Positions 9,323 through 27,782 of a stretch of DNA of 34,992 nt are shown one piece after another. The position numbers and the translations under genes were made by a program. The notes below the pieces were generated by a model, which saw only the letters and a program-made list of their open reading frames with translations, was not told the origin of the DNA and ran no database searches. How positions within the stretch are numbered: the first letter of the stretch is position 1; every line of letters starts with the position of its first letter. The DNA is from Bdellovibrionota bacterium (GTDB lineage Bacteria; Bdellovibrionota_C; UBA2361; OMII01), in NCBI GenBank assembly GCA_044345405.1, contig JBIJBE010000038.1, positions 1-34,992 on the forward strand, in the 5' to 3' direction.

Positions 9323-9946
9323 TTAGTTGATTTGTGGCGATACCTCAGGGACCGCCCCGACCTTTTCCACTATGAGTTCCCATCCCTCTCGAGGTCCCTG
9401 AATTCCCCTTATAGTGGCGTTTCTAGGGGAGGTCGTGACGCAGCCTCTTCGGTACGAGGCGAGTCCTCGGTCTCCAAGATAGGTCTCGTATCCAAGTATC
9501 TGTTTGCAGAGTCGATGGAGGAGTCTCCGCGCCATCTGTTGTTGTGCCCCTGTTCTTGGTTCATAAAAAGATGGAAGATCGTGTGGCTTAAAAACAGGAC
9601 TAGAGTCAAATCGTCCCTCGAATATGTGAGGGGCTCGTTGAAACCTCTTCAAACAGAGGGCCGTGGTGGCGTCAGCGATAACCATGCCGAATCCCCAAAG
9701 ATGCAGCGAGTACCTGGAGTCACAGGCCATAGCGTAGTGGGTGGAGCCGTGTGTTCCGGTAGGAGGGCGGGTTCGGGAAAATCCAAATTCAGTTAAAATA
9801 TTGCCTGATGCATTTCGAATGTCACATCCAAAGCACCACATTTGCAAATTGATTAGCCTCTCAAAGTTTTTGCCGAATTCCCCGTTGAATGACCACGAGG
9901 CAATCTTCGTTTGGTATCGAGGAAAGAGATTTTGCCGCTCAATCAT
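9323..9946 (-). CDS. hypothetical protein, translationally coupled to the upstream COG0523 gene
   Basis: 207-aa ORF with 4-bp ATGA overlap with the GTPase stop; WCFGCDI motif. Confidence 0.65.
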
Positions 9947-11145
9947 AGCTCCTCATGGGTTTCCTGTACCGACCATGGCGAGAACGGGTCGGTGAAATTC
10001 TTCCAGCCATCTTCGCCAAGCGCGAGCTCCTCGTCTGTGAGGAGACAGCAATCTAACATCGAGGTGAGCTTCTCTTGGCTCATGTCGAGACCGATCAGCA
10101 CGAGTTCCTGCTTGCCTTTCACAGGCGCCACTTCCGAGCTTATGAGCGAGCCGTCCTCCCCCCTTGCTGCCCAATAACCAGCCGGCTCGGACCGGCACGA
10201 TCCTCCCGCCTGTGACCACGATCCAGCGAGGCGAGAGCGCGACGCGAGCCAGAAAAAGCCCTTGGAGCGAACGACGCCTGGCCATTCAGATTGAATGCAC
10301 GCTGAGAATCGCTCGGGATGAAAGGGCCTATCACGGCGGTAGACGAAGCTCGTGATTCCGTACTCCTCTGTCTCTGGTGTGTGTTCGCCTGATAGCTCCT
10401 TAATCCAGCCAGGGCTCTGAGCTGCCTTCTCGTAGTCAAAAAGCTTTGTGTTGAGTACGTTTCTAGGATCAAGGTTCCCGAATTGGGCGTGAATCATCTG
10501 CGCGTCTGGGTTAAGCTTTTGAATCATAGCTTCAACAAGAGCAAGCTGCTTAGCGGGAAGGAGGTCTGTCTTATTAAGAACGATGATGTTAGCGAACTCG
10601 ACCTGATCAATAAGCAGATCCACTATCGTTCTGTCGTCTGAGTCGTCAGCGCCGATACCGAGCTTCCTAAGGTCGTCTGATGACTCCATCTGAGAAAAGA
10701 AATTAGCTGCGTCAACAACTGTCACCATCGTGTCGAGTCGAGCAACCTGTGACAGACTCCGTCCCTCTTCATCGGTGTGAGCAAATGTCGCTGCTACTGG
10801 CATTGGTTCCCCGATCCCAGTTGACTCTATGAGGAGATAATCGTATTTCCCCTCTCCGGCTAACTCTGCTACCTGCTCCAGGAGGTCCTCTCGCAGGGTG
10901 CAACAGATACAGCCGTTTGACATCTCCACGAGCCGCTCTTGGCTTCGGTCAAGGCGCGCATCGCCTCGCTCCACGAGCTGCACGTCGATATTCACCTCGC
11001 TCATATCATTGACGATTACGGCAACTTTCAGCCCGTCGCGATTCGTAAGGACGTGGTTCAGAAGGGTGGTCTTTCCAGCGCCTAAGAAACCAGAGAGTAC
11101 GGTTACGGGGAGTCGTTGTCGGCGCGGCAGTTTGTGTGGAGACAT
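9943..11145 (-). CDS. zigA: COG0523 zinc metallochaperone GTPase, ZigA/YciC type
   Basis: [64 protein letters not shown]; AAGGA RBS before ATG 11145. Confidence 0.92.
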
Positions 11146-11164
11146 ATGGGCATCCTTCTTGATA

Positions 11165-11181
11165 ATGCAACCTAGTTGCAC
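11165..11181. promoter_or_regulatory. putative Zur box 1 (ATGCAACCTAGTTGCAC) between divergent zigA and zur
   Basis: perfect TGCAAC-N3-GTTGCA palindrome; same motif recurs at 3 other promoters. Confidence 0.8.
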
Positions 11182-11230: not shown

Positions 11231-11596
11231 ATGAGAAAAACTCAGGCCAGGCAGGAGATCCTTGAACTTCTGACAAAGGCTGCGCGACCGGTATCAGCTC
11301 GGGAGATCGTGGAGGCTACAGCCCGCGCGCGACCGGATATTAACAAGTCGACGGTCTATCGCTTTATCAAGAGTCTACTAGAAGCTAAGCAGCTCGTTGG
11401 CATATCTCTCCCCGGGCGAGGGGCCCTCTATGAATTGCGCAACGAAAAGCAGCACTGTCACTTTACCTGCGAAGGTTGTCTCGAAGTTGTGTGTCTTCAT
11501 GGTACCGAGGTTGGGGTGGACCGGTTGGTTCCGGAAGGCTACACCGTTTTTCCCGACCATCTCGTGCTTTCTGGCCTCTGTCCGAAATGTTCCTGA
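11231..11596 (+). CDS. zur: Fur-family transcriptional repressor, probably Zur
   Basis: STVYR helix, HCHFTCEGC and C-terminal GLCPKC (two CxxC); divergent from zigA. Confidence 0.75.
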   Translation: MRKTQARQEILELLTKAARPVSAREIVEATARARPDINKSTVYRFIKSLLEAKQLVGISLPGRGALYELRNEKQHCHFTCEGCLEVVCLHGTEVGVDRLVPEGYTVFPDHLVLSGLCPKCS

Positions 11597-14575: not shown

Positions 14576-14592
14576 TTGCAACCCGGTTGCGT
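14576..14592. promoter_or_regulatory. putative Zur box 2 (TTGCAACCCGGTTGCGT)
   Basis: TGCAAC-N3-GTTGCG, downstream of TAAAAT (14555-14560) and ~33 bp before ATG 14625. Confidence 0.75.
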
Positions 14593-14624
14593 GTGGGGTA
14601 GCCTCGTACCGCGAGGTAAGCCGT

Positions 14625-15350: not shown

Positions 15351-16700
15351 ATGACAGATAAGAAAATACCAGTAACCGTACTCACAGGGTTTTTGGGGTC
15401 TGGTAAGACCACGCTTCTCAACCACATCCTTACGGCTAATCACGGGCGAAGAATCGCGGTGATCGAGAATGAGTTTGGCGAAGTCGGCATTGATCAAGAG
15501 CTCGTTGTTCGAGCGGAAGAGGAGATCTTTGAGATGAATAACGGGTGCATCTGCTGCACTGTTCGAGGTGACTTAATCCGAATCCTTGGGAACCTCATAA
15601 AACGCAAAGAGTCATTCGATCATATCCTCATCGAAACTACTGGAATGGCTGACCCAGGGCCTGTGGCTCAAACGTTTTTTGTTGATGAGGAGATGCAGCG
15701 GCATCTTTGTTTGGATGGGATTGTGACGATCGTTGACGCAAAGCACGTATGGGAACATCTTGACTCAAGCGAGGAGGTTCGAGAGCAGATAGCTTTTGCG
15801 GACCGCATCCTGATAAACAAGATAGATCTTGCGACGCCGTCCCAGATTGAGGACCTGCAGCATCGTATCAAGAAGATGAACGGAGTCGCGAAGCAGTACC
15901 TAACTCAGGATTCCATCATCGATATGGATCATATTCTGGGCCTCGGTGGGTTTAATATTCAACGAGCTCTTGATGTTGATCCGAAATTTCTGGAACCGGA
16001 GTACCCTTTTGAGTGGGGGGGCGTGTTCGAGCTTCCCACTTCGACCTGTTCGATTGAATGCAATCAAGGCCCAGATCCTTCTATGCGCATATTGCTGCTA
16101 CCGTGCGCAACCGAGGAGCATGACCGCCTGGAGGCGATCTTGAGGGATGCGGTAGTTCGCTTCTCCGATGATGCGAGAGAAGTAGCCTCTGGGGATGAGA
16201 TACGGAGTGTGGGGGACCCCATCGATCTTGTTTTCGCTGACAAGGTCTCAAGTTCGTACGAGGTGCTGTTTGGTAGTCCAGGAAGATACGCGCTCTTCAC
16301 TGAGCATCAACCAAGCGAGTTCGAGTTGGTTATTAAAGCCGCGGGCCATATCTGTAACCCTGTGCAAGAGCGATTTTTCAAGCCGGACCATGAGCATGAT
16401 GATGAGATCTCTTCTGCAGGATTTGAATTGGAAGAGGATATAGACGCAGAGAAGTTACAGCTTTGGCTCTCGGACTTACTCAGGGACAAGGGTAATGACA
16501 TCTTTAGGATGAAAGGTGTCTTTGCGATTGCTGGCGAAGATAGGCGGTTGGCGTTCCAGGGCGTGCACATGTTGCTCAAAGCAGAGCGACTAGATTCTTG
16601 GGGGTCTCGTCCACGGCGAAGTACACTTGTATTCATTGGGAGAAATCTCGATAGGGAAAGCTTGGAGGCCGGAGTGCGGGAGTGTGTGGCCGGTGACTGA
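15351..16700 (+). CDS. COG0523/CobW-family GTPase with internal insertion
   Basis: GFLGSGKTT, IENEFGE, GCICCTVRGDL, IETTGMADP, NKID; CobW_C with FRMKG, FQGVH, LVFIGR. Confidence 0.93.
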   Translation: MTDKKIPVTVLTGFLGSGKTTLLNHILTANHGRRIAVIENEFGEVGIDQELVVRAEEEIFEMNNGCICCTVRGDLIRILGNLIKRKESFDHILIETTGMADPGPVAQTFFVDEEMQRHLCLDGIVTIVDAKHVWEHLDSSEEVREQIAFADRILINKIDLATPSQIEDLQHRIKKMNGVAKQYLTQDSIIDMDHILGLGGFNIQRALDVDPKFLEPEYPFEWGGVFELPTSTCSIECNQGPDPSMRILLLPCATEEHDRLEAILRDAVVRFSDDAREVASGDEIRSVGDPIDLVFADKVSSSYEVLFGSPGRYALFTEHQPSEFELVIKAAGHICNPVQERFFKPDHEHDDEISSAGFELEEDIDAEKLQLWLSDLLRDKGNDIFRMKGVFAIAGEDRRLAFQGVHMLLKAERLDSWGSRPRRSTLVFIGRNLDRESLEAGVRECVAGD

Positions 16701-17730
16701 TACGCTGCCCTTTAAGAAACTGCGGTGTGATATTGCATCGCCCGTTGATGAATTTGTGTCCGTCATTAGAACGGCTAGCGACGACCTGTTTTTAGTTGGA
16801 GACCAGGCCGGCAAGCTGACTGCCCTAAGCTGTCAGGACGGTCGTAGCGTCTGGTCACGGCAAGTGCATACAGGGGGTATAAGGGGGCTTGATGTTAGCC
16901 ACGATAGCTTCATCTGCTACTCCGGCGGAGATGATGGATTTTTAGTCGCCACCGATATTTCAACCGGTGAGGAGCGCTACCGAGTATCTCTTAGGGCGGA
17001 CCCTCGTCTCTCCGATTGGGTGTCTCATCTTTGTTGGTCTGCCAACGAAAACGTTTTAGCGGCATCGTGTGGGAAGCGCTTGTTCTTTCTCTCCGATGAT
17101 TTACGACCTACCGCCGAACCGCGAGTTCATCCTAGTACGATCCAAGACATCACTTGGGACGAGAAGGGCAAACGTGTAGCGACGGTTTGTTGTGGAGGTG
17201 GAACGATCTGGTCACCAAACAGCGACGAAGCTCTAAGCACCTGGCATGACAAGGTGGTTATGTTATCTGTTCGCTGGGCATCGAGTGGAAAATATGTCGC
17301 GTGTGGCTGCCAAGATTCTTCCATACTGGTGTGGGATGTTAACCAGAAGCAAAATCTTCGAATGTGGGGATACCCGGGGAAAGTGAGCACCCTGGCTTGG
17401 GATCGCGCTGGCCGATACTTGGCCACGTCGGGACAAGGAGACCTTATCGTGTGGGACTTTAGCGGCGAGGGCCCCTCTGGAAAGGAGCCTATTCATAGAG
17501 GGATTCATCAAGGAATCATTTCGGCTATAGCGTTCAACCCCAAAGGCTCAATGTTGTGCACGACCGGGGATGACGGTTCGATCATAGTATGGAGAACAGG
17601 TTCATTTGAGCCTTGTCTGTATGGGGTGGGATCTGCGGGAATTTCCGCGCTTACCTGGAGTAGGGATGGTCGCCGGATCCTTGTTGGGCAACAGGATGGC
17701 GGAGTACGTATCTTTGCAGTTGACGCCTGA
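16693..17730 (+). CDS. WD40-repeat beta-propeller protein
   Basis: repeats such as ACGCQDSSILVWD, LATSGQGDLIVWD, TTGDDGSIIVW; GTG start overlaps the CobW 3' end. Confidence 0.88.
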   Translation: MTDTLPFKKLRCDIASPVDEFVSVIRTASDDLFLVGDQAGKLTALSCQDGRSVWSRQVHTGGIRGLDVSHDSFICYSGGDDGFLVATDISTGEERYRVSLRADPRLSDWVSHLCWSANENVLAASCGKRLFFLSDDLRPTAEPRVHPSTIQDITWDEKGKRVATVCCGGGTIWSPNSDEALSTWHDKVVMLSVRWASSGKYVACGCQDSSILVWDVNQKQNLRMWGYPGKVSTLAWDRAGRYLATSGQGDLIVWDFSGEGPSGKEPIHRGIHQGIISAIAFNPKGSMLCTTGDDGSIIVWRTGSFEPCLYGVGSAGISALTWSRDGRRILVGQQDGGVRIFAVDA

Positions 17731-17803
17731 GGCTCTGTTGTTGCGCAGTTAAAAAGCAGCTTTGTGGCACGGACCAGTTGTCGCTGATGCGAGGCATATT
17801 CCG

Positions 17804-18016
17804 CTAGGATTTCGAGTCAGGAGGCGAAGAGCGTTCAGGCGATGTCGGCTCCAGGAATTCCCTGAATTTAGTCACCAACTCTGAACACCATGATCTGTCT
17901 TGTCCAGGGACGGGCAGGGGCTGTGCCGTTCTTCTCTCTTCCTGACTTAATACACGACCATGTTGTCTCGCTTCTTGCATCAGGTAACCAGCATGAGTGG
18001 GTGAGAATGGCGTCAT
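17804..18016 (-). CDS. small hypothetical protein (70 aa)
   Basis: ATG 1 nt after the upstream TAG, preceded by GGAG; no recognisable motif. Confidence 0.45.
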   Translation of the reverse strand: MTPFSPTHAGYLMQEARQHGRVLSQEERRTAQPLPVPGQDRSWCSELVTKFREFLEPTSPERSSPPDSKS

Positions 18017-18017
18017 G

Positions 18018-19667
18018 CTATACTCCCTGACCTGCATTGATGGAGAGCCGGCTCGGGTCGCTCAGTAAGCTTAAAGCCCGATTCCATGACTTGTCGAGGC
18101 AGAGCCGCGCGCAGGTGCGTATCGCGTGGTTAGCAAGAGCGGGGGATGCGCCCTCATTTTCCAGCATCACTAAACGAGTCTTGAGATATGGTACGTCACC
18201 CTCTTTAAACGAACCTATGTGTCGTGCGTCTCGAGCGTTTTGAAGCCCGGTGAAATAGAGGGTAGCCGGCTTGGTTTCTCTAATGGTGGTGTCCAAGTTC
18301 CATTTAGCAAGTAGCCCGCCGCAATCGATGAGGAACCACGAGAGGTTGTATCCTACCTCGCGCTGGTAGTATGGCAGCGTCGGATGGGAATCGAACGCGC
18401 CTGATTTCAGAGCTTCGTATTGTTTGAGGTAAAATTCACACAGAGATCGTAGAAATGCCTCTTTGGTCTCTACTGGAAATCCGGGGAGAGAGACATACCG
18501 CCAAGCCTCCCCAGCGTCAGTCTCGGTGATAAGTCGACTATTTTCCACCACGTTGATCGGGATGCGAGACATAAGATCGTTCACTAACTGGACCGCTTTC
18601 TCGCGGACGAGAGGATCGCTCATATCTATCGATAATTCATCTCCTGTTGGTGTGGATGCGAGTTCTGGAAAGGACTCAGCTGTTAGAGGGAGTCTCCCGA
18701 TTAGGGTAATAAAGTTTCGTTCACTGCCAGCACGGCATTCAGAGATCTGCCAATCTCCCATAGTACAATCGAGGTCAAAGCGCCCGACCCGACCCTTAGC
18801 TCGGAGAAGGCCAGTCGGAGCCCCAGCTTTTACTGCGGATATGACGGTATCAGGACTCATACCTGAGGGGACGTTCAATGTGATGGTAAATTCTTGGTGC
18901 GCTTTGGGTAGGGGTTTGCTCGCAAATTGAACACCGCGGGTGAAAAGAGATATCTCCCTCAATGCGGGCAGTGGGGTGTCAGAATGCACTTGTGTTAAAG
19001 AAGCGACCGAAACGAGCGGGGAGGGCACGTTAAGGCACAGCTCACCGAGAGGTTTGCCCGATGGAGCGATCTCTATTTTCTGGGCGGTAGGATTGAACCT
19101 CTCGACCTCTGTCATCACTCTGTGGAGAGTCGCGTCATCGCGAATCCCAGCATCATTTTGAGTCCACGTGAGCGCAACTATGTCTGCGTGTGGAATCGTA
19201 TCGGCGGTACGTCCCAAGAGTGTGTTGTCATCAAAATGTTTTACATCGACAGTTACGATCACCATCGTTGGGATTTTAAGCTTATGAAGGAGGTTTTTCA
19301 CGGCGGACGGCTTCGCGATTCCCGTTGTTTCAATGAAGAGCGTCGTTATCTCAGGTTGCGCACGTAGCTGAGTGACGGCCGCCTGGAGTGAGTGTAGGTC
19401 GTTGCAGCAGATGCATCCCGCAGTAACTTCGAGCACGTTCTCTGGGCTGGTCCGCAAGCGGTTTTTGTCAGTATTGGTTGCGCCGATGTCGTTTTCAATA
19501 ACAACAAAAGAGCCAGGCTTGTTCGATGCCGCGGTCGTTTGCAGGAGATGGTTAAGGAGGGTTGTCTTTCCGCTGCCTAAGGTGCCTGAGATGACAATCG
19601 CTCTTGGGGGCAAGGAAAGGGGAGCTTCTGTGAAAGAGTGGAGCGGGACGTGGGCAGGGGATGACAT
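18018..19667 (-). CDS. divergent COG0523/CobW-like GTPase with C-terminal extension
   Basis: GTLGSGKTT, VIENDIG, GCICC, IETTGIAKP, LLRAKG; start reassigned to ATG 19667 downstream of the promoter. Confidence 0.8.
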   Translation of the reverse strand: MSSPAHVPLHSFTEAPLSLPPRAIVISGTLGSGKTTLLNHLLQTTAASNKPGSFVVIENDIGATNTDKNRLRTSPENVLEVTAGCICCNDLHSLQAAVTQLRAQPEITTLFIETTGIAKPSAVKNLLHKLKIPTMVIVTVDVKHFDDNTLLGRTADTIPHADIVALTWTQNDAGIRDDATLHRVMTEVERFNPTAQKIEIAPSGKPLGELCLNVPSPLVSVASLTQVHSDTPLPALREISLFTRGVQFASKPLPKAHQEFTITLNVPSGMSPDTVISAVKAGAPTGLLRAKGRVGRFDLDCTMGDWQISECRAGSERNFITLIGRLPLTAESFPELASTPTGDELSIDMSDPLVREKAVQLVNDLMSRIPINVVENSRLITETDAGEAWRYVSLPGFPVETKEAFLRSLCEFYLKQYEALKSGAFDSHPTLPYYQREVGYNLSWFLIDCGGLLAKWNLDTTIRETKPATLYFTGLQNARDARHIGSFKEGDVPYLKTRLVMLENEGASPALANHAIRTCARLCLDKSWNRALSLLSDPSRLSINAGQGV

Positions 19668-19712
19668 AACTACTAAGGCCTCGTAAAAACGCCGAACATC
19701 GGGCGAGGGGGG

Positions 19713-19741
19713 ACTATACGCAACTCGGTTGCATATGGCAA
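19713..19741 (-). promoter_or_regulatory. sigma70-like promoter with putative Zur box 3 (19718-19734) filling the -35/-10 spacer
   Basis: minus strand reads TTGCCA-tatgcaaccgagttgcg-TATAGT (17-bp spacer). Confidence 0.8.
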
Positions 19742-19763
19742 GGGCCCGTGGTACATCACGGGG

Positions 19764-21221
19764 ATGAATGTTGTAACAAACCACTCCACTCATGTAATTG
19801 TTGTCGGCTCCGGGATTATAGGGGGGAGCATCTCATTAGCTCTTCTGCGGAAGGGGGTTTCGGTCTGTCAGGTTCGACCCTTATCCGGTCGACGGGAGAG
19901 CGCTTCGCTCGCGGCTGGTGCGATGCTTGGGGCGTTCGCGGAGGTTACAGCGGATAAGAATTCTGCCCTCGATAAAGAGGAGACCGCTTTTCGCGTTCGG
20001 TCGAGTTCCCTCTATCCTGAATGGCTAGCTGAGCTGTCTGCTCTGAGTGGTAGCGCTATAGATAGTGGCATGGGCACGTTTATCGTAGCGAACACGTTCG
20101 GTCGACATGATCTAAGGAATATTCAGGCGATAGAGAGGGAGCTCGCACGATTTGGGAGCCCGTATGAAACGGTCGATGAGTGTGATGTTCCCGGCTATCA
20201 TCCAAACGAGCGGTATCTACCGCGCAAGATTCTCTGGCTCCCTCAAGAGGGATTTGTGGACACCGTTGCTCTCATGTCCGCGCTGGACGCCGCCACAGAG
20301 AGCCATCCTCGCTTCTCCCACGAGAATTGTTGGGTAGACCGCCTTATGCTCCGTGGCGGTAAGGTGTGTGGTGTTGTGCTCCCCGACGGTAGAGAGCTTG
20401 AGGGAGACCATGTGGTGTTGGCCGCAGGCGTTGGAACGCAGGCTCTTCTTGAGGCGCTTCCCGATGAAGCACGACTGTCATCTCCACGGCTCATGCCGGG
20501 CAAGGGCACTTCCCTTATTCTTGAGACCTCCGAACACTTTCCTCATGTGCTACGTTCTCCTAATCGTGATTTTGCTTGTGGAATTCACGTTGTCCCACGT
20601 GGCAAGGGAAGAATTTACGTGGGAGCAACCAATCGCACTGCCTCCTGTCCCGGGACATCAACGGGAGCATCTGTTGAGGAGGTTCACGACCTCCTGCATG
20701 AGGTTGTTCATGAATTTAATACCTCCCTCGATTCGGCAACCATTGAGTCTATTCGGGTGGGAAGCCGACCTATCTGCGTTGACGGATACCCTTTAGTTGG
20801 ATCGACCGAGTGTCCCGGACTTTCCTTAGCGACGGGTACCTATCGAAATGGCGTGCTCATGGCTCCTCTGATTGGCCGTATTATCGCGAGTGAGATAGTG
20901 GGGGACGCCATAAATGAAGCGAACCCTTTCTCTCCACGAGGGAGAAAACTTCGGGATGACACGCTCAGCTCCTCGGCTCTCTTCAAAAGTGGCGCCGAGG
21001 GGATCGTATCATTCTTGCCATCTCCTCACGGTGCGCTTCCCTATAAACGGTCGGAGGAGCTGAGCGGGTTCTTGCATACGCTCCTATCGATGGCGCTCAA
21101 GGATGGTGATGAGCTTGAATCGCTGCGACAAGAGGCTCGAAGGTTGCTGCAATCGCAGCCGATGAACGAGTCCTTTGCTCAGCTCTTCTTCATGCTCGGC
21201 GAACACCAGCCAGTCGGATAA
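19764..21221 (+). CDS. FAD-dependent oxidoreductase, glycine oxidase (ThiO)/DAAO-like
   Basis: GSGIIG, ASLAAGAML, VGAT, GSRP, ATGTYRNGVLMAP; extra ~100-aa C-terminal region. Confidence 0.85.
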   Translation: MNVVTNHSTHVIVVGSGIIGGSISLALLRKGVSVCQVRPLSGRRESASLAAGAMLGAFAEVTADKNSALDKEETAFRVRSSSLYPEWLAELSALSGSAIDSGMGTFIVANTFGRHDLRNIQAIERELARFGSPYETVDECDVPGYHPNERYLPRKILWLPQEGFVDTVALMSALDAATESHPRFSHENCWVDRLMLRGGKVCGVVLPDGRELEGDHVVLAAGVGTQALLEALPDEARLSSPRLMPGKGTSLILETSEHFPHVLRSPNRDFACGIHVVPRGKGRIYVGATNRTASCPGTSTGASVEEVHDLLHEVVHEFNTSLDSATIESIRVGSRPICVDGYPLVGSTECPGLSLATGTYRNGVLMAPLIGRIIASEIVGDAINEANPFSPRGRKLRDDTLSSSALFKSGAEGIVSFLPSPHGALPYKRSEELSGFLHTLLSMALKDGDELESLRQEARRLLQSQPMNESFAQLFFMLGEHQPVG

Positions 21222-23394: not shown

Positions 23395-23426
23395 TACTCC
23401 CTGGTAGTTTTACTCCCTGGTAGTTT
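23395..23426. repeat. perfect 16-bp tandem duplication at the 3' end of the ATPase gene
   Basis: TACTCCCTGGTAGTTT x2. Confidence 0.8.
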
Positions 23427-24367
23427 TAGGTGGGTTTGCCATCTGACTCAAATGGTCCATCGAGACCGGTATGTAGGGTCTGATTGTAGTAGGCGTTGTA
23501 CCACCATTCGCAGTTCTTCTGATGAATCTCATGAAGGCGCGTTTGGAACGCTCCCCAGGAGCGTCGACGCCGACTACATTCACTCTTAAGGGTTCTCCAC
23601 ACGTTGTCGTGCTCGTCGACAAAGGCTCGAAACGCGGCAGGATCTCCCTGCTCACTGTGGCGAAGGTGTCCTGAGTGAGAGACGCTACCAACGATGCACG
23701 CGTCAGGAAGCGCCTTTCGAACAAAATCAAGGTCACTTTCTGATACTACCTTATTGATCAGTACGACCGTGCGCGTCGCTGACTCCGCGTCCGTAGCGAG
23801 GTAATCTTTGTAGACATTTATCGACTTAGTAGTCGGCTCAATCACAAAGACGTTCAGGTCGTATGCCGCAACGAGCGAAGTAGAGAGTGTGTCGACACCC
23901 GCAGTCGCGTCTACGACTACCCAATCATTTTCAGTATCTTTGAGATGGTTGAGGACTACGCACATAGAGTGCAGCTTGGTATGATAGCAGTTCGCGCCGA
24001 CATCATGTTCTTGAAAACCTCCGACCCGTAAGAAGGACAGCGAGCCACGTGTTGTCGCGTAGCGCGCAAGAAACGGATCCTCTTCGTCGCAAGTAATAAA
24101 CCGAGAATCTGGGGACGGAGGTGTTGTGGATAGTAGCGGACGCTCTCCAAGGTCTTTGCGTTCTCCGCGAACATAGCCAGCTATCTCATCGTACAATCTG
24201 CCGAGTTGAGGTGGAGCGGGCTCTATATCAAGAGCCTCTTGAAGATGCGTGTTAACATCACCGTCAATTGCTATGACTCGGGTTCCCATCCCCTCCAGCC
24301 AGCGAGTAAAAGCGGCGGTAATAGTCGTTTTACCGCTTCCCCCCTTGCCAAGAAATCCGATTCTCAT
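23426..24367 (-). CDS. CooC/MinD-like P-loop ATPase
   Basis: deviant Walker A GKGGSGKTT, IDGD, VVVDATAG, VIEPT, INKV; GAGG RBS. Confidence 0.85.
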   Translation of the reverse strand: MRIGFLGKGGSGKTTITAAFTRWLEGMGTRVIAIDGDVNTHLQEALDIEPAPPQLGRLYDEIAGYVRGERKDLGERPLLSTTPPSPDSRFITCDEEDPFLARYATTRGSLSFLRVGGFQEHDVGANCYHTKLHSMCVVLNHLKDTENDWVVVDATAGVDTLSTSLVAAYDLNVFVIEPTTKSINVYKDYLATDAESATRTVVLINKVVSESDLDFVRKALPDACIVGSVSHSGHLRHSEQGDPAAFRAFVDEHDNVWRTLKSECSRRRRSWGAFQTRLHEIHQKNCEWWYNAYYNQTLHTGLDGPFESDGKPT

Positions 24368-24393
24368 GATCTACCTCTTCGTTGTTGAAATAA

Positions 24394-25713
24394 TTATGTA
24401 TTCGCGACGAACTTTACAGCCTCAGGCGCGTTCAGCCACGCGCGGTATCCGCCCTCCAGCGAGAACGCCTCGAATCCCCGTTTCGCGAGGTACGCCGCGA
24501 CGGGACGAGTGAATACTCCATGTTGACACACAAAGACTATCGCGCGCTCCCTCGGGAAAGGAACGCTTGTTTGAAGAATACGTTGGAGATCCTCGAGTGG
24601 ATAATTAAGTGCCTCTGGCAGGTGCTCAAGGGAGTAGGCAACTGTTGAGCGAGTATCGATGATTAAGGGAGGCCTATCCCTTATAAGAGTTCGCAGTTGT
24701 AGCGCGTTTACGGCAGGTGCCTCAGATATCTCCTCCTCTTCGAGGTCGTGCCATAGTTTTCCACGGGACTCCAGTCCAAAGATATCAGGCCGTCGTTCCT
24801 TAACGTAGGAGATATAACTTTCCATACGATCACACGCGAAGAGCACGGCGGTATGTTGTCGTGTGAGCTCGCTGTCGATCGTGCGTAGGTATTCAACTGC
24901 TCCGTAAAAATTCGCGCCAGATGAGGGGCCCGCTGGTATTCCGCATCTTCGAATAAGGGTCACCATTCCCTCGATAGCGTCTCGTGAGCTGACTGACAGG
25001 AGTTGATGGTAGGCGTCACGGCGAAATACCCCATTCTCCCATAGCTCCTCGGCGCTCCTAATGCCTGGTATGAAATCATGCCTCCGAGCCGTTAAGCCTA
25101 TCAGCTTAAGCTCACTATTTGCGAGCCTAAGAGTATCTGCGGTGCCGCAGGAGCTTCCCGCTGTGCCAACACCTGCTATGAGAAAATCGACTCGGGGCAG
25201 ATCCGCGCCTATCTCAATTCCTGTCGTCTCGGCATGTGCTCGCGGGTTATCTCGATTGGTAAATTGCGATGTAAAGAAAACCTGATTAGGGGATTCGGCA
25301 GCTCGCCGCTCAAGCGCGTACTGAGGATCATTGGGGTCGTTCGGATCGAAACAGTCGCTGGCATTTGGGACCTCTTCAATTGAAGCTCCCATCAGTCGCA
25401 AAATATCCTTCTGTTCTTTTACTCTGGTCAGGCCACTGACGAGAGAGAAAGGAATGCCATCAATTGAGCATAGAGCCTGGAGAGCTTTCGCCGTATTTCC
25501 ACTGGAGTTCTCTACGACAACCGCGTTTTCCTGTTGTAGTCGTTCGCGATGGGGCGCAAGCATCGCTTTCGCGATGCGGTCCTTGATTGAGCCAAATGGA
25601 TTGAGGAGCTCAAGCTTGGCGTAGAGGCGGACGTTGCGTAATCCATGGACCGACGCTGGGATCTCAAGCAGAGGGGTATTTCCAATAAGCTCATGGATTG
25701 ATGAGGCTATCAT
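24394..25713 (-). CDS. PLP-dependent cysteine-synthase-family enzyme fused to a C-terminal rhodanese domain
   Basis: IGNTPL, KLELLNPFGSIKDR, SSGNT, GVGTAGS, GPSSG; rhodanese IIDTR…HLPEA…FVCQHG…LEGGY; AAGGAGGA RBS and 4-bp overlap with the upstream gene. Confidence 0.9.
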   Translation of the reverse strand: MIASSIHELIGNTPLLEIPASVHGLRNVRLYAKLELLNPFGSIKDRIAKAMLAPHRERLQQENAVVVENSSGNTAKALQALCSIDGIPFSLVSGLTRVKEQKDILRLMGASIEEVPNASDCFDPNDPNDPQYALERRAAESPNQVFFTSQFTNRDNPRAHAETTGIEIGADLPRVDFLIAGVGTAGSSCGTADTLRLANSELKLIGLTARRHDFIPGIRSAEELWENGVFRRDAYHQLLSVSSRDAIEGMVTLIRRCGIPAGPSSGANFYGAVEYLRTIDSELTRQHTAVLFACDRMESYISYVKERRPDIFGLESRGKLWHDLEEEEISEAPAVNALQLRTLIRDRPPLIIDTRSTVAYSLEHLPEALNYPLEDLQRILQTSVPFPRERAIVFVCQHGVFTRPVAAYLAKRGFEAFSLEGGYRAWLNAPEAVKFVANT

Positions 25714-27209
25714 AGCTCCTCCTTAAGGTAGGGACGGTACTCTTCATCTAAGGCCCACTTAGTCTCGTGTTCGCGAAACCATACCGCGACTTTGCGCGCG
25801 ACAGGTTGGTGAAGGGTCGGGGATTCAGCAAAATCCATGATGTAAGGAGCGGTATTCGCGAAAGCGATAAGATCTCCTGGTGCGACTCGTTGTCCGAAGT
25901 GAATCGAGCGGGGAGTTAAAAGCTCATTAGCGACGCAAAGGTTGCCCGTCAGAAAATACCCATGGTCGCACGGTTCGGCAGAAAACTTTCTAGGAAGTAA
26001 AATAGGATCGGTTAGGAGAGTGAGTTCAAAAGCATTGAGGTTTGAGCGATTCATCCGTAACACAACAAGCGGGTGCCCCTGTTCAGATCTTCGGACACTG
26101 AGTACCTCTGCCACGGTGAGGCCCACCTGATCGAGCAGGGCTCTTCCCGGTTCAATCCACAATTCCAATACAGACTCGCTCAATAGGCGTCCCGCTGGCA
26201 CGGCGGAAAATGAGGGTAATTCCTGACGAAGGAGAGCGCACAACTGATCCGCAGGTGGAAGTGGCTCGGCATGGTCCATGAATCGAGGCGAGCCTTTGAT
26301 GCGACCATTTTCGGTGCTGAAGCCCAGACCGGACCGGTTCCATGTGCAGGCCTTACCCTGTCCGGTGATAGAGCCTTTGAGGCGTACGATGAAGTTCTCC
26401 CATTCGTAGGTATTTTTCGCGTACCTGATGCGGAAACCACCACCAATGTTCACTACCCGAGGGGTGAAACCTCTTTGCTTGGCGGCGAAGAGAATTGAGA
26501 GGGTCTGCTCAAGCGCGAGAACCCGATATTCGATTGAATCGGTATTGAGGTGGTAGGAGAACCCGAGCAGCGATACTTCGTGGGTGTGAGCGTGAAGCTT
26601 CGGCCATAAATCGGGGATGCTGTCGATAGAGACACCAAAGGTGCCATCACTCACCGCAAAAGCGTTGCGCGGACTCTTGAATCCGGAGAGGCGAACGAGG
26701 ATTTGAGTTTTCTCCGCAATTCCGAGCTTTTTCTTGAGCGCGCAAATCAGATCGATCTCGGCGATGTCATCAACGTTGATGACGATCCCTTGCAGAAGTG
26801 CGAAGGAGAGGTATCCCTGATCTTTGGGACCGGTCGCCTCAATTCGTGAAGGAGGGACGCCAGCTGAGAGAGCCGCAGCGAGGGATCCTTCGGATGACAC
26901 GTCCACCCCGATGGTAGGAGAGCACGCGATTTCTCGAACGATGGAAGATGAGCGGTTGGGCTTGGTTGTAAGAAAAACTCTGCCGTCTATGCCATAGTGT
27001 TCGAACGTCTCATGAAATGGTCTTACGTTTTCGGATACGCGTTCGGGGAATAGAACGTTTAGAGGTGAGCTTAGTGATGCGACGAGGCGCTTCAGGAGTT
27101 CGCTTTCTAATAGGCGACCGGATTCAGAGCTAAGAAGGGCCTCTATTCTAGAGCCCTCCGGCGTATGGATCTTAGATGCGCCAGCTGTGGGGAGAACTGT
27201 ATATTCCAT
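25710..27209 (-). CDS. fold-type III PLP decarboxylase (diaminopimelate decarboxylase-like, Y4yA type)
   Basis: TTKPN (PLP Lys), DVSS, TGPK, YHL, NIGGGF, EPGRALLD, GNLC and NTAPY motifs. Confidence 0.85.
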   Translation of the reverse strand: MEYTVLPTAGASKIHTPEGSRIEALLSSESGRLLESELLKRLVASLSSPLNVLFPERVSENVRPFHETFEHYGIDGRVFLTTKPNRSSSIVREIACSPTIGVDVSSEGSLAAALSAGVPPSRIEATGPKDQGYLSFALLQGIVINVDDIAEIDLICALKKKLGIAEKTQILVRLSGFKSPRNAFAVSDGTFGVSIDSIPDLWPKLHAHTHEVSLLGFSYHLNTDSIEYRVLALEQTLSILFAAKQRGFTPRVVNIGGGFRIRYAKNTYEWENFIVRLKGSITGQGKACTWNRSGLGFSTENGRIKGSPRFMDHAEPLPPADQLCALLRQELPSFSAVPAGRLLSESVLELWIEPGRALLDQVGLTVAEVLSVRRSEQGHPLVVLRMNRSNLNAFELTLLTDPILLPRKFSAEPCDHGYFLTGNLCVANELLTPRSIHFGQRVAPGDLIAFANTAPYIMDFAESPTLHQPVARKVAVWFREHETKWALDEEYRPYLKEEL

Positions 27210-27234
27210 GGTTGAATACCGTTGGTCATCTTAT

Positions 27235-27251
27235 ATGCAACTGAGTTGCGA
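27235..27251. promoter_or_regulatory. putative Zur box 4 (ATGCAACTGAGTTGCGA) within the promoter of the PLP operon
   Basis: minus strand reads TTGCTT-18 bp containing the box-TAAGAT; ~26 bp upstream of ATG 27209. Confidence 0.78.
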
Positions 27252-27338
27252 AAGCAAGACCTCGCCCCAAGCGCTTTTCGGTCTGATGAACAGGGGAGCC
27301 GAATTTCACGTGTAATGAGCGACTTGAGCTGCCAATGA

Positions 27339-27354
27339 TGGCGGACCGCCCCCT
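27339..27354. repeat. 16-bp direct repeat copy 1 (copy 2 at 27624-27639), each leading into a CCCC/GGGG hairpin
   Basis: TGGCGGACCGCCCCCT identical in both copies. Confidence 0.75.
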
Positions 27355-27407
27355 GAAGGGGCCGATGTTAGCCAATCTCGTCCGTCTTCTAAAGAAGACG
27401 AGACGGA

Positions 27408-27463
27408 TGGCGGAGCCGACCCCCCTTCGCTAAAGCTTCGGGGGGCATGCGGGACTCGAACCC
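27408..27463 (-). repeat. duplicated 3' end of tRNA-Asp (att-like) interrupted by a 30-bp palindromic insert
   Basis: TGGCGGAGCCGAC + CCCCCTTCGCTAAAGCTTCGGGGGGCATGC + GGGACTCGAACCC; flanks equal 27706-27731. Confidence 0.8.
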
Positions 27464-27705
27464 TGCTATGAAAGAAACGCTGCGCTAGCTTTCCCCTTCG
27501 CACCTACGGCGCTACGTGGGACAAGCGCGTCTTATTATTGGGGGGATATGTTATCGGGGTGAAGCACGCTTCCCGCGTGCGGGAGGGGCGAAGCCCCTGC
27601 GCGACAGCGCGGAGCGGGAATAGTGGCGGACCGCCCCCTAAAGGGGGCGAGTCTCGCCAATCGCCCGTGAAGATATTTGAAGCTATGAAGATGTTTGAGG
27701 GCGAT

Positions 27706-27782
<77 letters not shown>

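What the first reader, a model, noticed from the sequence alone, without database searches (positions are those of the whole stretch)
23426..27257. Zur-box-controlled PLP operon (decarboxylase + cysteine-synthase/rhodanese + CooC-like ATPase): candidate undescribed zincophore or zinc-starvation metabolite pathway
Seen: three co-directional genes (4-bp overlap, then 26-bp gap) whose promoter carries the same palindrome found at all three COG0523 loci. Established: a CysK-fold beta-replacement enzyme plus a DAP-decarboxylase-fold enzyme build aminocarboxylate metallophores (SbnA and SbnH in staphyloferrin B; from memory, the Zur-regulated EDDS aes genes use similar enzymes). Inference: this operon makes a diamine/aminocarboxylate or sulfur-containing zinc chelator. 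It has no NIS synthetase, lyase or exporter; a rhodanese and a metal-chaperone-like ATPase are present instead, an architecture I do not recognise.
Basis: partly seen in the sequence, partly recalled or inferred. Interest (0 to 1): 0.85.

Follow-up and report, generated by a model that had tools for sequence, protein, structure and literature searches.

The report
Zinc-regulated operon for a metal-binding metabolite
Three genes behind a zinc-regulator binding site look like the core of an undescribed pathway, found from tiny symbiotic bacteria to Streptomyces, that probably turns phosphoserine into a small zinc-binding molecule when zinc is scarce.

Summary
Three co-directional minus-strand genes sit 27 nt behind a GCAAC-N3-GTTGC palindrome: a fold-III PLP decarboxylase (DC), a PLP beta-replacement enzyme fused to rhodanese (CSR), and a CooC-like ATPase. 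The window has 4 exact copies of the palindrome (0.03 expected). The other three lie at the three COG0523 loci, one of them beside a fur-family gene.

DC and CSR are not housekeeping lysA or cysK; the genome has true copies elsewhere. The closest solved protein with CSR's two-domain build is fungal aspergillomarasmine A synthase, which makes a zinc chelator from O-phosphoserine and aspartate.

DC sits directly upstream of CSR in 79 of 79 loci from at least ten phyla. Frequent neighbours are a cysteine desulfurase (59 of 79) and the ATPase (28 of 79). The pair often lies beside zur-like genes, ZnuABC, AztD, ZrgA, COG0523 or zinc-independent L31/L33 genes.

Best reading (about 0.5): a Zur-repressed pathway for a small N- or N/S-donor zinc ligand. 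The product, the role of sulfur and the role of the ATPase are inferred. I found no paper describing this module. I rate it a new variant of a known kind.

The parts
27237..27249 (.). Palindromic operator GCAAC-N3-GTTGC, presumed binding site of the Fur-family (Zur-like) repressor
   Evidence: exact match, 4 in the window against 0.03 expected. The same box sits in the same place upstream of the orthologous decarboxylase gene in relatives L020 and L021.
27230..27257 (-). Promoter-like stretch TTGCTT - 16 nt - TATAAG, with the palindrome filling the spacer
   Evidence: My own reading of the sequence. The consensus scan did not list it (8 of 12 matches, below its threshold of 9). Inferred, not shown.
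25710..27209 (-). DC: fold-III PLP decarboxylase of the DAP-decarboxylase/SbnH/BtrK group, not LysA itself
   Evidence: lysA model scores 89 and 74.5 bits against a cut-off of 297.9; catalytic K83, GGG256-258, E353-P-G, C425 and Y456 are invariant in 13 of 13 sequences; H220 is nearly invariant (at least 90%); model pLDDT 84.8; Foldseek finds DAPDC, BtrK, D-Orn/Lys decarboxylase and SbnH, all at 14-20% identity.
24394..25713 (-). CSR: CysK-fold PLP beta-replacement domain fused to a rhodanese domain, with the same architecture as AMA synthase
   Evidence: every NCBIfam equivalog scores below its cut-off. K44, the SSGNTAKA loop, R219 and rhodanese C396 are invariant in 8 of 8; 8h4h/8h4q is the top two-domain match; a separate clade with 100/100 support.
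23426..24367 (-). CooC-like SIMIBI ATPase with a deviant Walker A (GKGGSGKT) and an invariant Cys127-x-His129 where CooC1 has its metal-binding CxC
   Evidence: alignment to 3kje; a C-x-H motif in 36 of 36 homologues, and C127 and H129 invariant in 31 of 31 aligned; no CODH (Prismane family) found in the genome, which is 99.4% complete.
11167..11179 (.). Same palindrome between the ZigA-like COG0523 gene and the fur-family gene
   Evidence: By my reading of the sequence, the in-frame ATG at 11145 with an AAGGA before it would put the box 21 nt upstream of the COG0523 start and 51 nt upstream of the fur ATG.
11231..11596 (+). Fur-family regulator, the presumed Zur of this regulon
   Evidence: PF01475. 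NCBIfam cannot subtype it (PerR, Irr, Fur and Zur all score weakly). The zinc assignment rests on context only.
9943..11181 (-). COG0523_1, a ZigA-like zinc metallochaperone GTPase
   Evidence: ZigA model 563.5 bits, E 2e-169, just under the cut-off of 600.
14578..14590 (.). Same palindrome upstream of the 156-aa Cys-rich ORF, COG0523_2 and WD40 array
15351..16700 (+). COG0523_2
19720..19732 (.). Same palindrome between divergent COG0523_3 and the FAD oxidase gene
18018..19793 (-). COG0523_3 (divergent; cobW domain only)
19764..21221 (+). DAO-family FAD oxidoreductase (ThiO-like), under the third box. It is a possible tailoring or C-N-cleaving enzyme of the pathway in this lineage
   Evidence: ThiO model 161.7 bits against a cut-off of 250.8. 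In relative L021 it abuts the trio. A DAO gene follows the desulfurase in L028 and an amine oxidase abuts DC in L032. Window-like DAO was found in 0 of the 79 wider loci.

Best explanation
The three genes are a Zur-type (zinc-starvation) operon whose conserved core is the DC-CSR pair.

Proposed mechanism:
1. When zinc is sufficient, the Fur-family repressor encoded at 11231-11596 sits on the palindrome in the promoter spacer. When zinc is short it leaves, and the operon is transcribed together with the three COG0523 GTPases and a TonB-dependent receptor.
2. CSR works like aspergillomarasmine A synthase, SbnA or Fda4. It forms the PLP-aminoacrylate from O-phosphoserine and adds a nucleophile. 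That nucleophile is an amino-acid or amine nitrogen, and in lineages with a dedicated cysteine desulfurase probably also, or instead, a persulfide sulfur delivered through the rhodanese cysteine.
3. DC then removes the alpha-carboxylate of the new 2-amino-2-carboxyethyl unit, as SbnH does. This leaves a 2-aminoethyl (ethylenediamine- or cysteamine-type) arm.
4. The product is a small N- or N/S-donor zinc ligand, used to capture or mobilise zinc.
5. The CooC-like ATPase, with a Cys-x-His site where CooC binds nickel, handles the metal by loading, unloading or hand-over.

Shown: gene layout, domains, catalytic residues, operator sharing, conservation, and linkage to zinc genes.
Inferred: repressor identity, O-phosphoserine as substrate, the nucleophile, the product, its use, and the ATPase role.
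For: Operator:
- 4 exact copies in the window against 0.03 expected, all at promoters of zinc-type genes.
- A fifth copy lies before a TonB-dependent receptor.
- The box is conserved before the orthologous operon in L020, L021 and L022, and beside it in L027.

Not housekeeping:
- A true lysA (310.2 bits against a cut-off of 297.9) and a true cysK/M (391.5 against 344.15) lie elsewhere in the genome.
- CSR forms a separate clade with 100/100 support.

Homology:
- AMA synthase 8h4h/8h4q is the best two-domain match: Foldseek E 7e-24, profile E 9e-43 over both domains.
- It is the top hit for the C-terminal half, and it shares the PGxRS motif and the rhodanese Cys.
- Passages I read in PMC12751119 and in preprint 10.1101/2025.10.30.685158 say that AMA synthase, SbnA, CmnB, Fda4 and Tln5 all join O-phosphoserine to an amino-acid amine.

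Conservation:
- DC is directly upstream of CSR in 79 of 79 loci and in 9 of 9 stretches from relatives.

Zinc linkage in other phyla:
- Patescibacteria L045: ATPase-DC-CSR-desulfurase-fur-znuACB.
- Woesearchaeota L053: COG0523 ... ATPase-DC-CSR ... znuACB.
- Streptomyces L096: znuA-aztD-...-DC-CSR-desulfurase next to a type-B L31 gene.
- Streptomyces L103: a perfect 7-1-7 palindrome, then rpmG, type-B rpmE, COG0523, DC, CSR and the desulfurase.
- A ZrgA-type importer is adjacent in L037, and similar ABC/FtsX genes in 5 loci.
- Perfect 7-1-7 palindromes run at 1.39 per kb in 19 module-upstream regions against 0.126 per kb in the rest of those loci.

Small-molecule signature: variable tailoring and transport genes lie next to the core. 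These are an NNMT/TEMT-like methyltransferase, a DAO or amine oxidase, a 2OG oxygenase, an extra Cys/Met-type PLP enzyme, and MFS or RND transporters.

Other support:
- No ZnuA-family gene was found in this genome, so another uptake route is needed.
- DC-CSR complex prediction gave weak support: score 0.36, best of 3 controls 0.01. The mark was reached by 58 of 80 solved complexes and 2 of 110 mismatched pairs, but at scores of 0.60 or under by only 7 of the 80 solved complexes and by both mismatches. The runs agree in at least 65% of contacts, and the partner's pLDDT is at least 82.
Against: - No product, substrate or zinc response has been observed.
- The fur-family protein of the window cannot be typed as Zur from its sequence.
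- Genome-wide, the box count equals that of the reversed control pattern.
- CSR's PALP domain scores about equally against CysK/M, SbnA and a lanthionine synthase, so C-N rather than C-S chemistry is not decided.
- The commonest partner, a cysteine desulfurase with its catalytic Cys kept (59 of 79 loci), has no role in any known aminocarboxylate pathway.
- No dedicated exporter or metallophore-type binding protein is consistently linked. ZnuA-type importers take free zinc.
- 54 of 79 loci show no zinc gene within 8 kb, and no Zur-like box turned up in the Nocardia-type loci scanned.
- A metallochaperone-like ATPase is not part of any known metallophore pathway.
- Minimal-genome Patescibacteria and DPANN archaea are unexpected producers of secreted chelators.
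Confidence: 0.5

Rival explanations
1. An intracellular sulfur route. The desulfurase passes persulfide to the rhodanese cysteine, CSR adds it to the aminoacrylate from O-phosphoserine, and DC decarboxylates the product. The result is a low-molecular-weight thiol or persulfide of the cysteamine type. It buffers or mobilises the cell's own zinc pool, or supplies sulfur where zinc-dependent sulfur carriers fail, and it is not secreted.
For: - The desulfurase is adjacent in 59 of 79 loci, and either IscS-type or SufS-type is recruited.
- The catalytic Cys loop is kept: 28 of 48 ORFs match the motif, and 14 more were checked by eye.
- The rhodanese Cys is invariant in 8 of 8, and the domain resembles catalytic single-domain rhodaneses such as GlpE.
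- An extra Cys/Met-metabolism PLP enzyme occurs in 5 loci.
- No exporter is consistently present.
- The module occurs in minimal genomes.
Against: - Taking sulfur from cysteine only to rebuild cysteine is futile, and direct decarboxylation of cysteine would need neither CSR nor the desulfurase.
- AMA synthase keeps the same rhodanese Cys without any known sulfur chemistry.
- Fold-III decarboxylases characteristically act on diamino substrates (recalled knowledge).
- The window's own operon and several relatives lack a dedicated desulfurase.
Confidence: 0.2
2. A metallocentre or zinc-trafficking machine. The CooC-like ATPase is the business end and inserts zinc, or a metal-sulfur unit, into a client protein during zinc shortage. 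The PLP enzymes and the desulfurase make an accessory ligand or sulfur donor for that step.
For: - CooC1 is the best solved relative over the full length, and the CxC nickel site is replaced by an invariant C-x-H.
- Some loci carry a second paralogue that lacks Walker A but keeps the C-x-H motif.
- Nocardia loci have, at the same place, a protein with a CopZ-like HMA domain instead of the ATPase.
- The operon is co-regulated with three COG0523 GTPases.
- No CODH was found in the genome.
Against: - The ATPase is dispensable to the module (28 of 79 loci), whereas DC-CSR is always present.
- No candidate client is conserved.
- A decarboxylase has no place in known metallocentre assembly.
Confidence: 0.12
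3. The operator and the neighbouring Fur-family genes answer to another metal (iron, nickel or cobalt) or to peroxide, and the pathway makes a siderophore-type or other metabolite unrelated to zinc.
For: - The window's regulator scores weakly and about equally for PerR, Irr, Fur and Zur.
- The in-cluster regulators of L045 and L084 score higher for Fur or PerR than for Zur.
- SbnA and SbnH belong to an iron siderophore pathway.
- A NicO-like membrane protein follows the regulator.
Against: - The boxes sit at a ZigA-like COG0523 (563.5 bits).
- Relatives lie with znuABC, aztD (490 bits, over its cut-off), zrgA, and type-B L31 and L33 genes.
- The Micavibrio in-cluster regulator scores best for Zur, 101.9 bits against 40.5 for Fur.
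Confidence: 0.06
4. Zinc-sparing spare copies of lysine and cysteine biosynthesis enzymes (LysA and CysK paralogues).
For: The best family-level hits are lysA and cysKM.
Against: - Both score far below the curated cut-offs, and true copies exist elsewhere in the genome.
- CSR forms a separate clade.
- Neither LysA nor CysK needs zinc (recalled knowledge).
- The module occurs in Patescibacteria and DPANN, groups that I recall largely lack amino-acid biosynthesis; I did not test this.
Confidence: 0.02

Closest known systems
Aspergillomarasmine A (AMA) synthase of Aspergillus oryzae (PDB 8H4H, 8H4Q)
   Same: It has the same two-domain build: a CysK-fold PLP domain plus a C-terminal rhodanese-like domain. 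It is the best two-domain match by fold and by profile. It shares the PGxRS motif, the CGPSSG motif and the rhodanese Cys. It makes a Zn2+ chelator from O-phosphoserine and aspartate (passages read; the abstracts listed call AMA a natural Zn2+ metallophore).
   Different: Identity is only 21-22%. AMA synthase is fungal and sits in a two-gene cluster without a decarboxylase, desulfurase or ATPase. It has no known Zur control. Its product keeps all its carboxylates.
SbnA and SbnH of staphyloferrin B biosynthesis (Staphylococcus aureus)
   Same: The same logic: a CysK-fold enzyme uses O-phosphoserine, and a DAP-decarboxylase-fold enzyme then turns a substituted 2,3-diaminopropionate into an ethylenediamine arm. 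SbnH structures are among the fold matches of DC, and SbnA is among the profile matches of CSR.
   Different: The SbnA model scores 146 bits against a cut-off of 349.95. SbnA has no rhodanese domain. The Sbn pathway needs SbnB and NIS synthetases, is iron-regulated, and has no desulfurase or ATPase.
[S,S]-EDDS (aes) genes of Amycolatopsis japonicum
   Same: A Zur-controlled small aminocarboxylate zinc ligand (the review passage read states Zur control). From memory, not checked here, the genes are an SbnA-like, an SbnB-like and a DAP-decarboxylase-like enzyme plus a transporter.
   Different: As far as I recall it has no rhodanese fusion, desulfurase or CooC-like ATPase. It is restricted to actinomycetes. 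I could not read the original paper (Spohn et al. 2016) in the library.
Fda4 and Fda3 of Fusarium poae (L-2,3-diaminopropionate for fusadapamides)
   Same: Fda4 is a PLP enzyme with a rhodanese-like domain that joins O-phosphoserine to L-alanine. An FAD oxidoreductase then cleaves the conjugate. The window's regulon likewise holds an FAD (DAO-family) oxidoreductase under the same box.
   Different: The system is fungal and feeds an NRPS. It has no decarboxylase and no link to zinc. The window-type DAO gene is not conserved with the module (0 of 79 loci).
CooC1, the nickel-insertion ATPase of CO dehydrogenase (PDB 3KJE)
   Same: Full-length similarity (E 3.4e-11), the deviant Walker A, and a metal-ligand motif at the same position.
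   Different: The motif is C-x-H, not C-x-C. No CODH was found in the genome. The genomic partners are PLP enzymes and zinc genes.
Opine-type zincophores (staphylopine, pseudopaline; cnt operons)
   Same: A functional analogy only: Zur-repressed operons that build a small N/O-donor chelator by adding an amino-acid-derived arm to an amino acid. The review passage names pseudopaline as Zur-controlled.
   Different: The enzymes are unrelated (a nicotianamine-synthase-like enzyme and an opine dehydrogenase, as recalled). Those operons carry dedicated exporters and importers.

Membership tests
Cysteine synthase CysK/CysM (NCBIfam TIGR01136, TIGR01139, TIGR01138) | Score above the curated cut-off of the family model | tested here: not met
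   cysKM 159.6 bits against 344.15; CysM 134.4 against 394.2; CysK 128.1 against 350.95. The genome's true copy scores 391.5.
Cysteine synthase CysK/CysM | Groups with bona fide CysK in a tree | tested here: not met
   22 CSR rows lie on one side of a branch with 100/100 support. The genome's own CysK, its CBS-like protein and three fusion proteins lie on the other side (27 rows). No SbnA, CysM or AMA synthase sequence was available to include.
Fold-type II PLP beta-replacement enzymes (PF00291) | PLP lysine, substrate-carboxylate loop and PLP phosphate loop present | tested here: met
   PF00291 E 2.5e-47. K44 and SSGNTAKA are invariant in 8 of 8; in the GTxGS loop, G183, T184, G186 and S187 are invariant but position 185 varies (A/S/T/C). 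Assigning these motifs to those roles is from memory.
SbnA family (TIGR03945) | Score above the curated cut-off | tested here: not met
   146.0 bits against 349.95.
AMA-synthase-like PALP+rhodanese enzymes | PLP domain and C-terminal rhodanese-like domain in one chain, alignable over both | tested here: met
   The A1 profile against 8h4q_N gives E 9.4e-43 over profile positions 14-431 of 441. Foldseek's top four hits are 8h4h/8h4q chains. The C-terminal-half profile has it as top hit at 6.8e-18.
AMA-synthase-like PALP+rhodanese enzymes | Uses O-phosphoserine and forms a C-N bond with an amino-acid amine | not testable with these tools
   Only an invariant Arg in the shared PGxRS motif (R219) hints at phosphate binding. 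That is my inference and needs an enzyme assay.
Diaminopimelate decarboxylase LysA (TIGR01048) | Score above the curated cut-off | tested here: not met
   89 bits and 74.5 bits against 297.9. The true lysA at C7:5209-6420 scores 310.2.
Fold-type III PLP decarboxylases | Catalytic set: PLP Lys, His, Gly-rich loop, EPG, Cys and Tyr | tested here: met
   K83, G256-258, E353-P354-G355, C425 and Y456 are invariant in 13 of 13; H220 is nearly invariant (at least 90%). The fold matches DAPDC, BtrK and SbnH. Residue roles are recalled by analogy.
CooC (CODH nickel-insertion ATPase) | Deviant Walker A and full-length similarity to CooC1 | tested here: met
   GKGGSGKT; 3kje aligned to residues 1-254, E 3.4e-11.
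CooC (CODH nickel-insertion ATPase) | CxC metal motif and a CODH partner | tested here: not met
   The motif is C127-Y-H129. No Prismane/CODH family match was found in the 99.4%-complete genome.
Rhodanese sulfurtransferase | Active-site cysteine in the catalytic loop | tested here: met
   PF00581 E 8.1e-14. C396 is invariant in 8 of 8 and aligns with the loop Cys of single-domain rhodaneses. Persulfide transfer itself was not tested.
Zur regulon | Shares an operator with recognised zinc-homeostasis genes | tested here: met
   The boxes lie at the ZigA-like COG0523 and fur pair, two further COG0523 loci and a TonB-dependent receptor.
Zur regulon | Zinc-dependent repression by Zur | not testable with these tools
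   Needs expression and binding experiments. Metatranscriptome contigs give only a weak hint that the genes are transcribed.

The most novel reading that the evidence does not exclude
The DC-CSR pair is a minimal, horizontally mobile pathway for a new class of zinc ligand. It runs on repeated O-phosphoserine-dependent 'aminoethylation': beta-replacement, then decarboxylation, possibly iterated as AMA synthase iterates. In most lineages a sulfur atom is relayed from cysteine desulfurase through the rhodanese cysteine, giving an N/S-donor chelator. The CooC-like Cys/His ATPase would be the first nucleotide-driven device that loads zinc onto, or strips it from, a metallophore. If so, even Patescibacteria and DPANN archaea make their own zincophore.
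Probability: 0.22. Interest if true: 0.9.

Novelty: new variant of a known kind. Interest (0 to 1): 0.72.

Why it matters
- Known zincophore pathways are few and lineage-bound: opine-type cnt, EDDS, coelibactin, kupyaphores.
- Here a two-to-four-gene module is tied to zinc genes in Bdellovibrionota, Micavibrio, Melainabacteria, cyanobacteria, Bacillota, Patescibacteria, Woesearchaeota, Methanosarcinales, Nocardia and Streptomyces. It could be one of the most widespread answers to zinc shortage, and no name or product is attached to it.
- It links the fungal AMA synthase, whose product is of interest as a metallo-beta-lactamase inhibitor, to a large bacterial and archaeal family. That family may be a source of new chelators and C-N or C-S bond-forming biocatalysts.
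- It offers a testable role for a CooC-like ATPase outside CO dehydrogenase.
- It gives a concrete client pathway to study beside the poorly understood COG0523 GTPases.

Tried and rejected
- Earlier findings of this scan were not open to the session.
- Ten literature searches and passages of seven papers turned up no description of a bacterial PALP-rhodanese + decarboxylase module or its link to Zur. Subscription papers were not readable, including Spohn et al. 2016 on EDDS, Guo et al. 2020 on AMA synthase and the paper behind 8H4H. Supplements were not consulted.
- A search for longer, fused forms of CSR found no DC-CSR or ATPase fusion. It found only ThiS-ThiF-PALP-rhodanese and CysRS-PALP fusions from other branches. 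The tool warns that finding none is weak evidence.
- The sigma-70 and terminator scan gave counts no higher than shuffles and did not flag the promoter I read by eye.
- Rfam found only the tRNA.
- A recalled actinobacterial Zur-box consensus, allowing up to 3 mismatches, hit none of the Nocardia loci except one site far from the module in L080. It did hit several Streptomyces loci (39 loci scanned).
- A protein-atlas look-up of the ATPase gave only generic 'ATP-binding protein / CO dehydrogenase maturation factor' clusters.
- Metatranscriptome contigs from three RNA runs cover short pieces of all three genes at depth 2-7. DNA carry-over cannot be excluded, and X16 duplicates X17, so this is only a hint of transcription.
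- I first read the ABC/FtsX genes beside some modules as MacB-type exporters. The neighbouring ZrgA and DUF3299 genes show they are Zrg-type zinc importers.
- I considered and dropped three other readings: lanthionine or thialysine formation as a DAP or lysine bypass, cyanide detoxification (cyanoalanine synthase plus rhodanese), and taurine or cysteate synthesis. None fits the zinc linkage or the presence in organisms without the relevant pathways.

Full report
**What is there**

The window is contig C62 of a 3.59-Mb, 85-contig genome that is 99.4% complete. Its nearest named relatives are Bdellovibrionota MAGs.

Three ORFs lie head to tail on the minus strand:
- 25710-27209, 499 aa (DC)
- 24394-25713, 439 aa (CSR)
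- 23426-24367, 313 aa (ATPase)

They have a 4-bp overlap and a 26-bp gap.

- DC carries the PLP-binding domain of fold-III decarboxylases (PF02784, E 1.3e-17). Its best family model is lysA, at 89 bits against a cut-off of 297.9.
- CSR is a CysK-fold PLP domain (PF00291, E 2.5e-47) fused to a rhodanese domain (PF00581, E 8.1e-14). All cysteine synthase, SbnA and cystathionine synthase models score far below their cut-offs.
- The ATPase has a deviant Walker A (GKGGSGKT). It aligns over residues 1-254 with the nickel-insertion ATPase CooC1, 3kje, at E 3.4e-11. Cys127-Tyr-His129 lies opposite CooC's Cys-x-Cys.

**The operator**

GCAACTGAGTTGC lies at 27237-27249, 27 nt from the DC start codon. 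By my reading it fills the 16-nt spacer between TTGCTT and TATAAG. The consensus scan did not list this promoter.

The exact pattern GCAACNNNGTTGC occurs four times in the window. The mean of 100 shuffles was 0.03 and none reached four. The other three copies are:
- between a COG0523 gene that nearly reaches the ZigA equivalog cut-off (563.5 of 600 bits) and a fur-family gene;
- upstream of a Cys-rich 156-aa ORF, COG0523_2 and WD40 array;
- between COG0523_3 and a ThiO-like FAD oxidoreductase.

The whole genome has seven copies, and the reversed control pattern also gives seven. The signal is therefore in placement, not number. Five of the seven are intergenic, and the fifth is 83 bp before a TonB-dependent receptor gene on C27. 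Two are inside ORFs and are probably chance.

The fur-family protein cannot be typed from its sequence. Calling it Zur rests on what it sits next to.

**Not housekeeping enzymes**

The genome has a lysA that passes its cut-off (C7:5209-6420, 310.2 bits) and a cysK/M that passes its own (C40:32216-33094, 391.5 bits). On the same scale DC scores 74.5 bits and CSR 160.6.

I built a tree of 27 PLP domains: 22 CSR relatives picked from 21 loci plus the window, the genome's CysK and CBS-like proteins, and three fusion proteins. One protein was dropped because it lacked the anchor motif. The CSR rows lie on one side of a branch with 100/100 support.

I had no SbnA, CysM or AMA synthase sequences to add, so the tree does not say which characterised enzyme is nearest.

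**The closest characterised relative**

A profile of eight CSR orthologues matches chain 8h4q_N ('rhodanese domain-containing protein') at E 9.4e-43 across both domains. An AlphaFold model of CSR (pLDDT 79.8) has the 8h4h and 8h4q chains as its four best Foldseek hits (E 7e-24 to 1e-22, 21-22% identity). Their titles name aspergillomarasmine A synthetase, apo and with O-phosphoserine.

A profile of the C-terminal half alone also has it as top hit (6.8e-18). That alignment shows a shared (I/V)PGxRS motif, CGPSSG, and the rhodanese loop cysteine.

According to passages I read:
- AMA synthase joins O-phosphoserine to L-aspartate, and then to the product again, giving a metal chelator.
- Fda4, another PLP enzyme with a rhodanese-like domain, joins O-phosphoserine to L-alanine. 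An FAD oxidoreductase then releases L-2,3-diaminopropionate.
- SbnA, CmnB and Tln5 do the same kind of C-N beta-replacement.

The PLP domain of CSR on its own is about equally distant from CysM, a lanthionine synthase and SbnA.

**DC**

Thirteen orthologues keep the full catalytic set of fold-III decarboxylases. The model (pLDDT 84.8) matches DAP decarboxylases, BtrK, D-ornithine/lysine decarboxylase and SbnH about equally, at E 1e-21 to 1e-25 and 14-20% identity.

**Conservation**

Full-length CSR orthologues are patchy. I found them in 7 of 25 genomes of the genus (the own genome included) and in 2 of 16 genomes from other families of the order.

In nine stretches fetched from those genomes, DC lies directly upstream of CSR in 9 of 9.

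Of the 79 best loci, all 79 have DC immediately upstream of CSR. They come from Bdellovibrionota, Micavibrio, other Pseudomonadota MAGs, a cyanobacterium, Melainabacteria, Bacillota, several Patescibacteria lineages, Woesearchaeota, Methanosarcinales, Nocardia, Streptomyces and others.

The gene tree cuts across phyla. Micavibrio, a cyanobacterium, a melainabacterium and a relative of the window's order sit on branches of 0.11-0.15. The module therefore moves horizontally.

**Partners**

phmmer at E 1e-6 or better over all ORFs of the 79 loci gave these counts:

| Neighbour | Loci (of 79) |
|---|---|
| Class-V cysteine desulfurase homologue | 59 |
| CooC-like ATPase | 28 |
| Fur-family gene | 20 |
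| COG0523 | 8 |
| ZnuA | 3 |
| ZnuB | 3 |
| Methyltransferase | 4 |
| ABC/FtsX permease | 5 |
| RND pump | 5 |
| Window-type DAO | 0 |

- The desulfurases are IscS-like in some lineages and SufS-like in others, all below the equivalog cut-offs. Of 48 ORFs, 28 carry RxGxHC. In 14 of the other 20 I saw a cysteine at the matching loop; 4 were not looked at and 2 are fragments.
- The ATPase C-x-H motif is present in 36 of 36 homologues, and Cys127 and His129 are invariant in 31 of 31 aligned.
- Four loci add a paralogue without Walker A.
- Nocardia loci have, in place of the ATPase, a 428-aa protein ending in a CopZ-like domain.
- Variable extras are an NNMT/TEMT-like methyltransferase, a Cys/Met-type PLP enzyme (with a second DC-CSR pair in L034 and L037), DAO or amine oxidases, a 2OG oxygenase, an MFS transporter, and an ATPase-HAD fusion.

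**Zinc linkage elsewhere**

- Patescibacteria L045 reads ATPase-DC-CSR-desulfurase-fur-znuA-znuC-znuB with overlapping or abutting genes.
- Woesearchaeota L053 reads COG0523-x-ATPase-DC-CSR-x-znuACB.
- Streptomyces L096 has znuA and aztD (490 bits, cut-off 400), then further ORFs, DC, CSR and the desulfurase, next to a type-B L31 gene.
- In Streptomyces L103 a perfect TGGAAATGATTTCCA lies 18 nt before rpmG (82 bits). Type-B rpmE (135 bits), COG0523, DC, CSR and the desulfurase follow.
- The ABC/FtsX genes beside five modules belong, at least in L037, with a ZrgA gene and DUF3299, which marks a Zrg-type zinc importer.
- The in-cluster regulator of Micavibrio scores 101.9 bits for Zur against 40.5 for Fur. 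Those of L045 and L084 score higher for Fur or PerR.

Counting Fur, COG0523, ZnuA and ZnuB only, 25 of 79 loci have a zinc-type neighbour and 54 do not. Of those 54, 34 are actinobacterial.

In 19 module-upstream regions, perfect 7-1-7 palindromes occur at 1.39 per kb, against 0.126 per kb in the rest of the same loci (5 in 3,588 bp against 37 in 294,048 bp). I chose those regions by eye, which weakens this test.

**Other observations**

- No ZnuA-family gene and no CODH were found in the own genome.
- A DC-CSR complex prediction gave weak support: score 0.36, best of three controls 0.01. The mark was reached by 58 of 80 solved complexes and 2 of 110 mismatched pairs, but at scores of 0.60 or under by only 7 of the 80 and by both mismatches. 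The runs agree in at least 65% of contacts, and the partner's pLDDT is at least 82.
- Lake-water metagenomes hold the stretch. Three metatranscriptome runs give short low-depth contigs on each of the three genes, which is only a hint of transcription.

**Reading**

The layout, the shared operator and the repeated, independent linkage to zinc uptake and zinc-sparing genes make membership of a zinc-starvation regulon likely. I put that at about 0.85.

The always-paired beta-replacement and decarboxylase enzymes, the AMA synthase kinship and the shifting set of tailoring genes point to a small molecule built from O-phosphoserine and carrying 2-aminoethyl arms. That is a plausible zinc ligand, at about 0.5.

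Two things do not fit any known aminocarboxylate pathway: the dedicated cysteine desulfurase with the invariant rhodanese cysteine, and the CooC-like Cys/His ATPase. They keep open an intracellular thiol route and a metallocentre-assembly role.

The ten literature searches found no description of this module.

Noticed in passing
window 27334-27463 and 27619-27782: Upstream of tRNA-Asp (27706-27782, minus strand) lies a degenerate copy of a ~285-nt unit. It includes a 13-nt exact repeat of the tRNA 3' end (27408-27420 = 27706-27718) and a tRNA-like fragment at 27437-27463. It may be a decayed tRNA duplication or an old integration scar between the operon and the tRNA.
   Followed up: partly
window 14794-15264 (+): A 156-aa ORF under the second box, just before COG0523_2. 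It has no Pfam hit but carries Cys clusters (CLGCCCG ... GCLGPCDC). A 29%-identical ORF follows CSR directly in locus L085. It may be a metal-binding partner of the COG0523 proteins. The overlapping 162-aa ORF at 14406-14894 contains the box, so the gene calls here are uncertain.
   Followed up: partly
window 16627-17730 (+): A WD40 beta-propeller protein overlaps the end of COG0523_2 and is apparently co-transcribed with it. This is an unusual partner for a zinc GTPase.
   Followed up: no
G000:C27:16708-16720 and 16791-18821: The only exact box outside the window that is intergenic lies 83 bp before a TonB-dependent receptor gene that is cut by the contig end. No ZnuA-family gene was found anywhere in the genome. 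This predator-like bacterium may depend on receptor-mediated zinc uptake.
   Followed up: partly
L034 11253-14034 and L037 8233-10651; also L028 5169-9681: Some Bdellovibrionota carry a second, divergent DC-CSR pair joined to a ~500-aa Cys/Met-metabolism-type PLP enzyme, next to COG0523 or fur genes. This is a sister module with three PLP enzymes.
   Followed up: partly
L030 3051-4277, L032 10-1077, L061 5460-6512, L063 5439-6467: A second ATPase paralogue beside the first lacks the Walker A lysine motif but keeps the C-x-H motif and gains Cys/His-rich C-terminal motifs. This suggests an active-inactive heterodimer.
   Followed up: no
L038, L027, L039, L043 (CSR genes): CSR genes of Micavibrio, a relative of the window's order, an Oculatellaceae cyanobacterium and a melainabacterium are near-identical in the tree (branch lengths 0.11-0.15). 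This points to recent transfer of the module across phyla.
   Followed up: partly
window 9323-9946 (-) and L022 4578-5762: A 207-aa ORF without family hits follows the ZigA-like COG0523 gene. In relative L022, two ~195-aa ORFs without hits bridge COG0523_1 and DC-CSR in what looks like one operon under the box.
   Followed up: no
window 11624-12310 (+) and 12537-14210 (+): A NicO/DsbD_2-like membrane protein follows the fur-family gene, and after it a 557-aa ORF with no family hit. It may be the inner-membrane metal transporter of this regulon.
   Followed up: no
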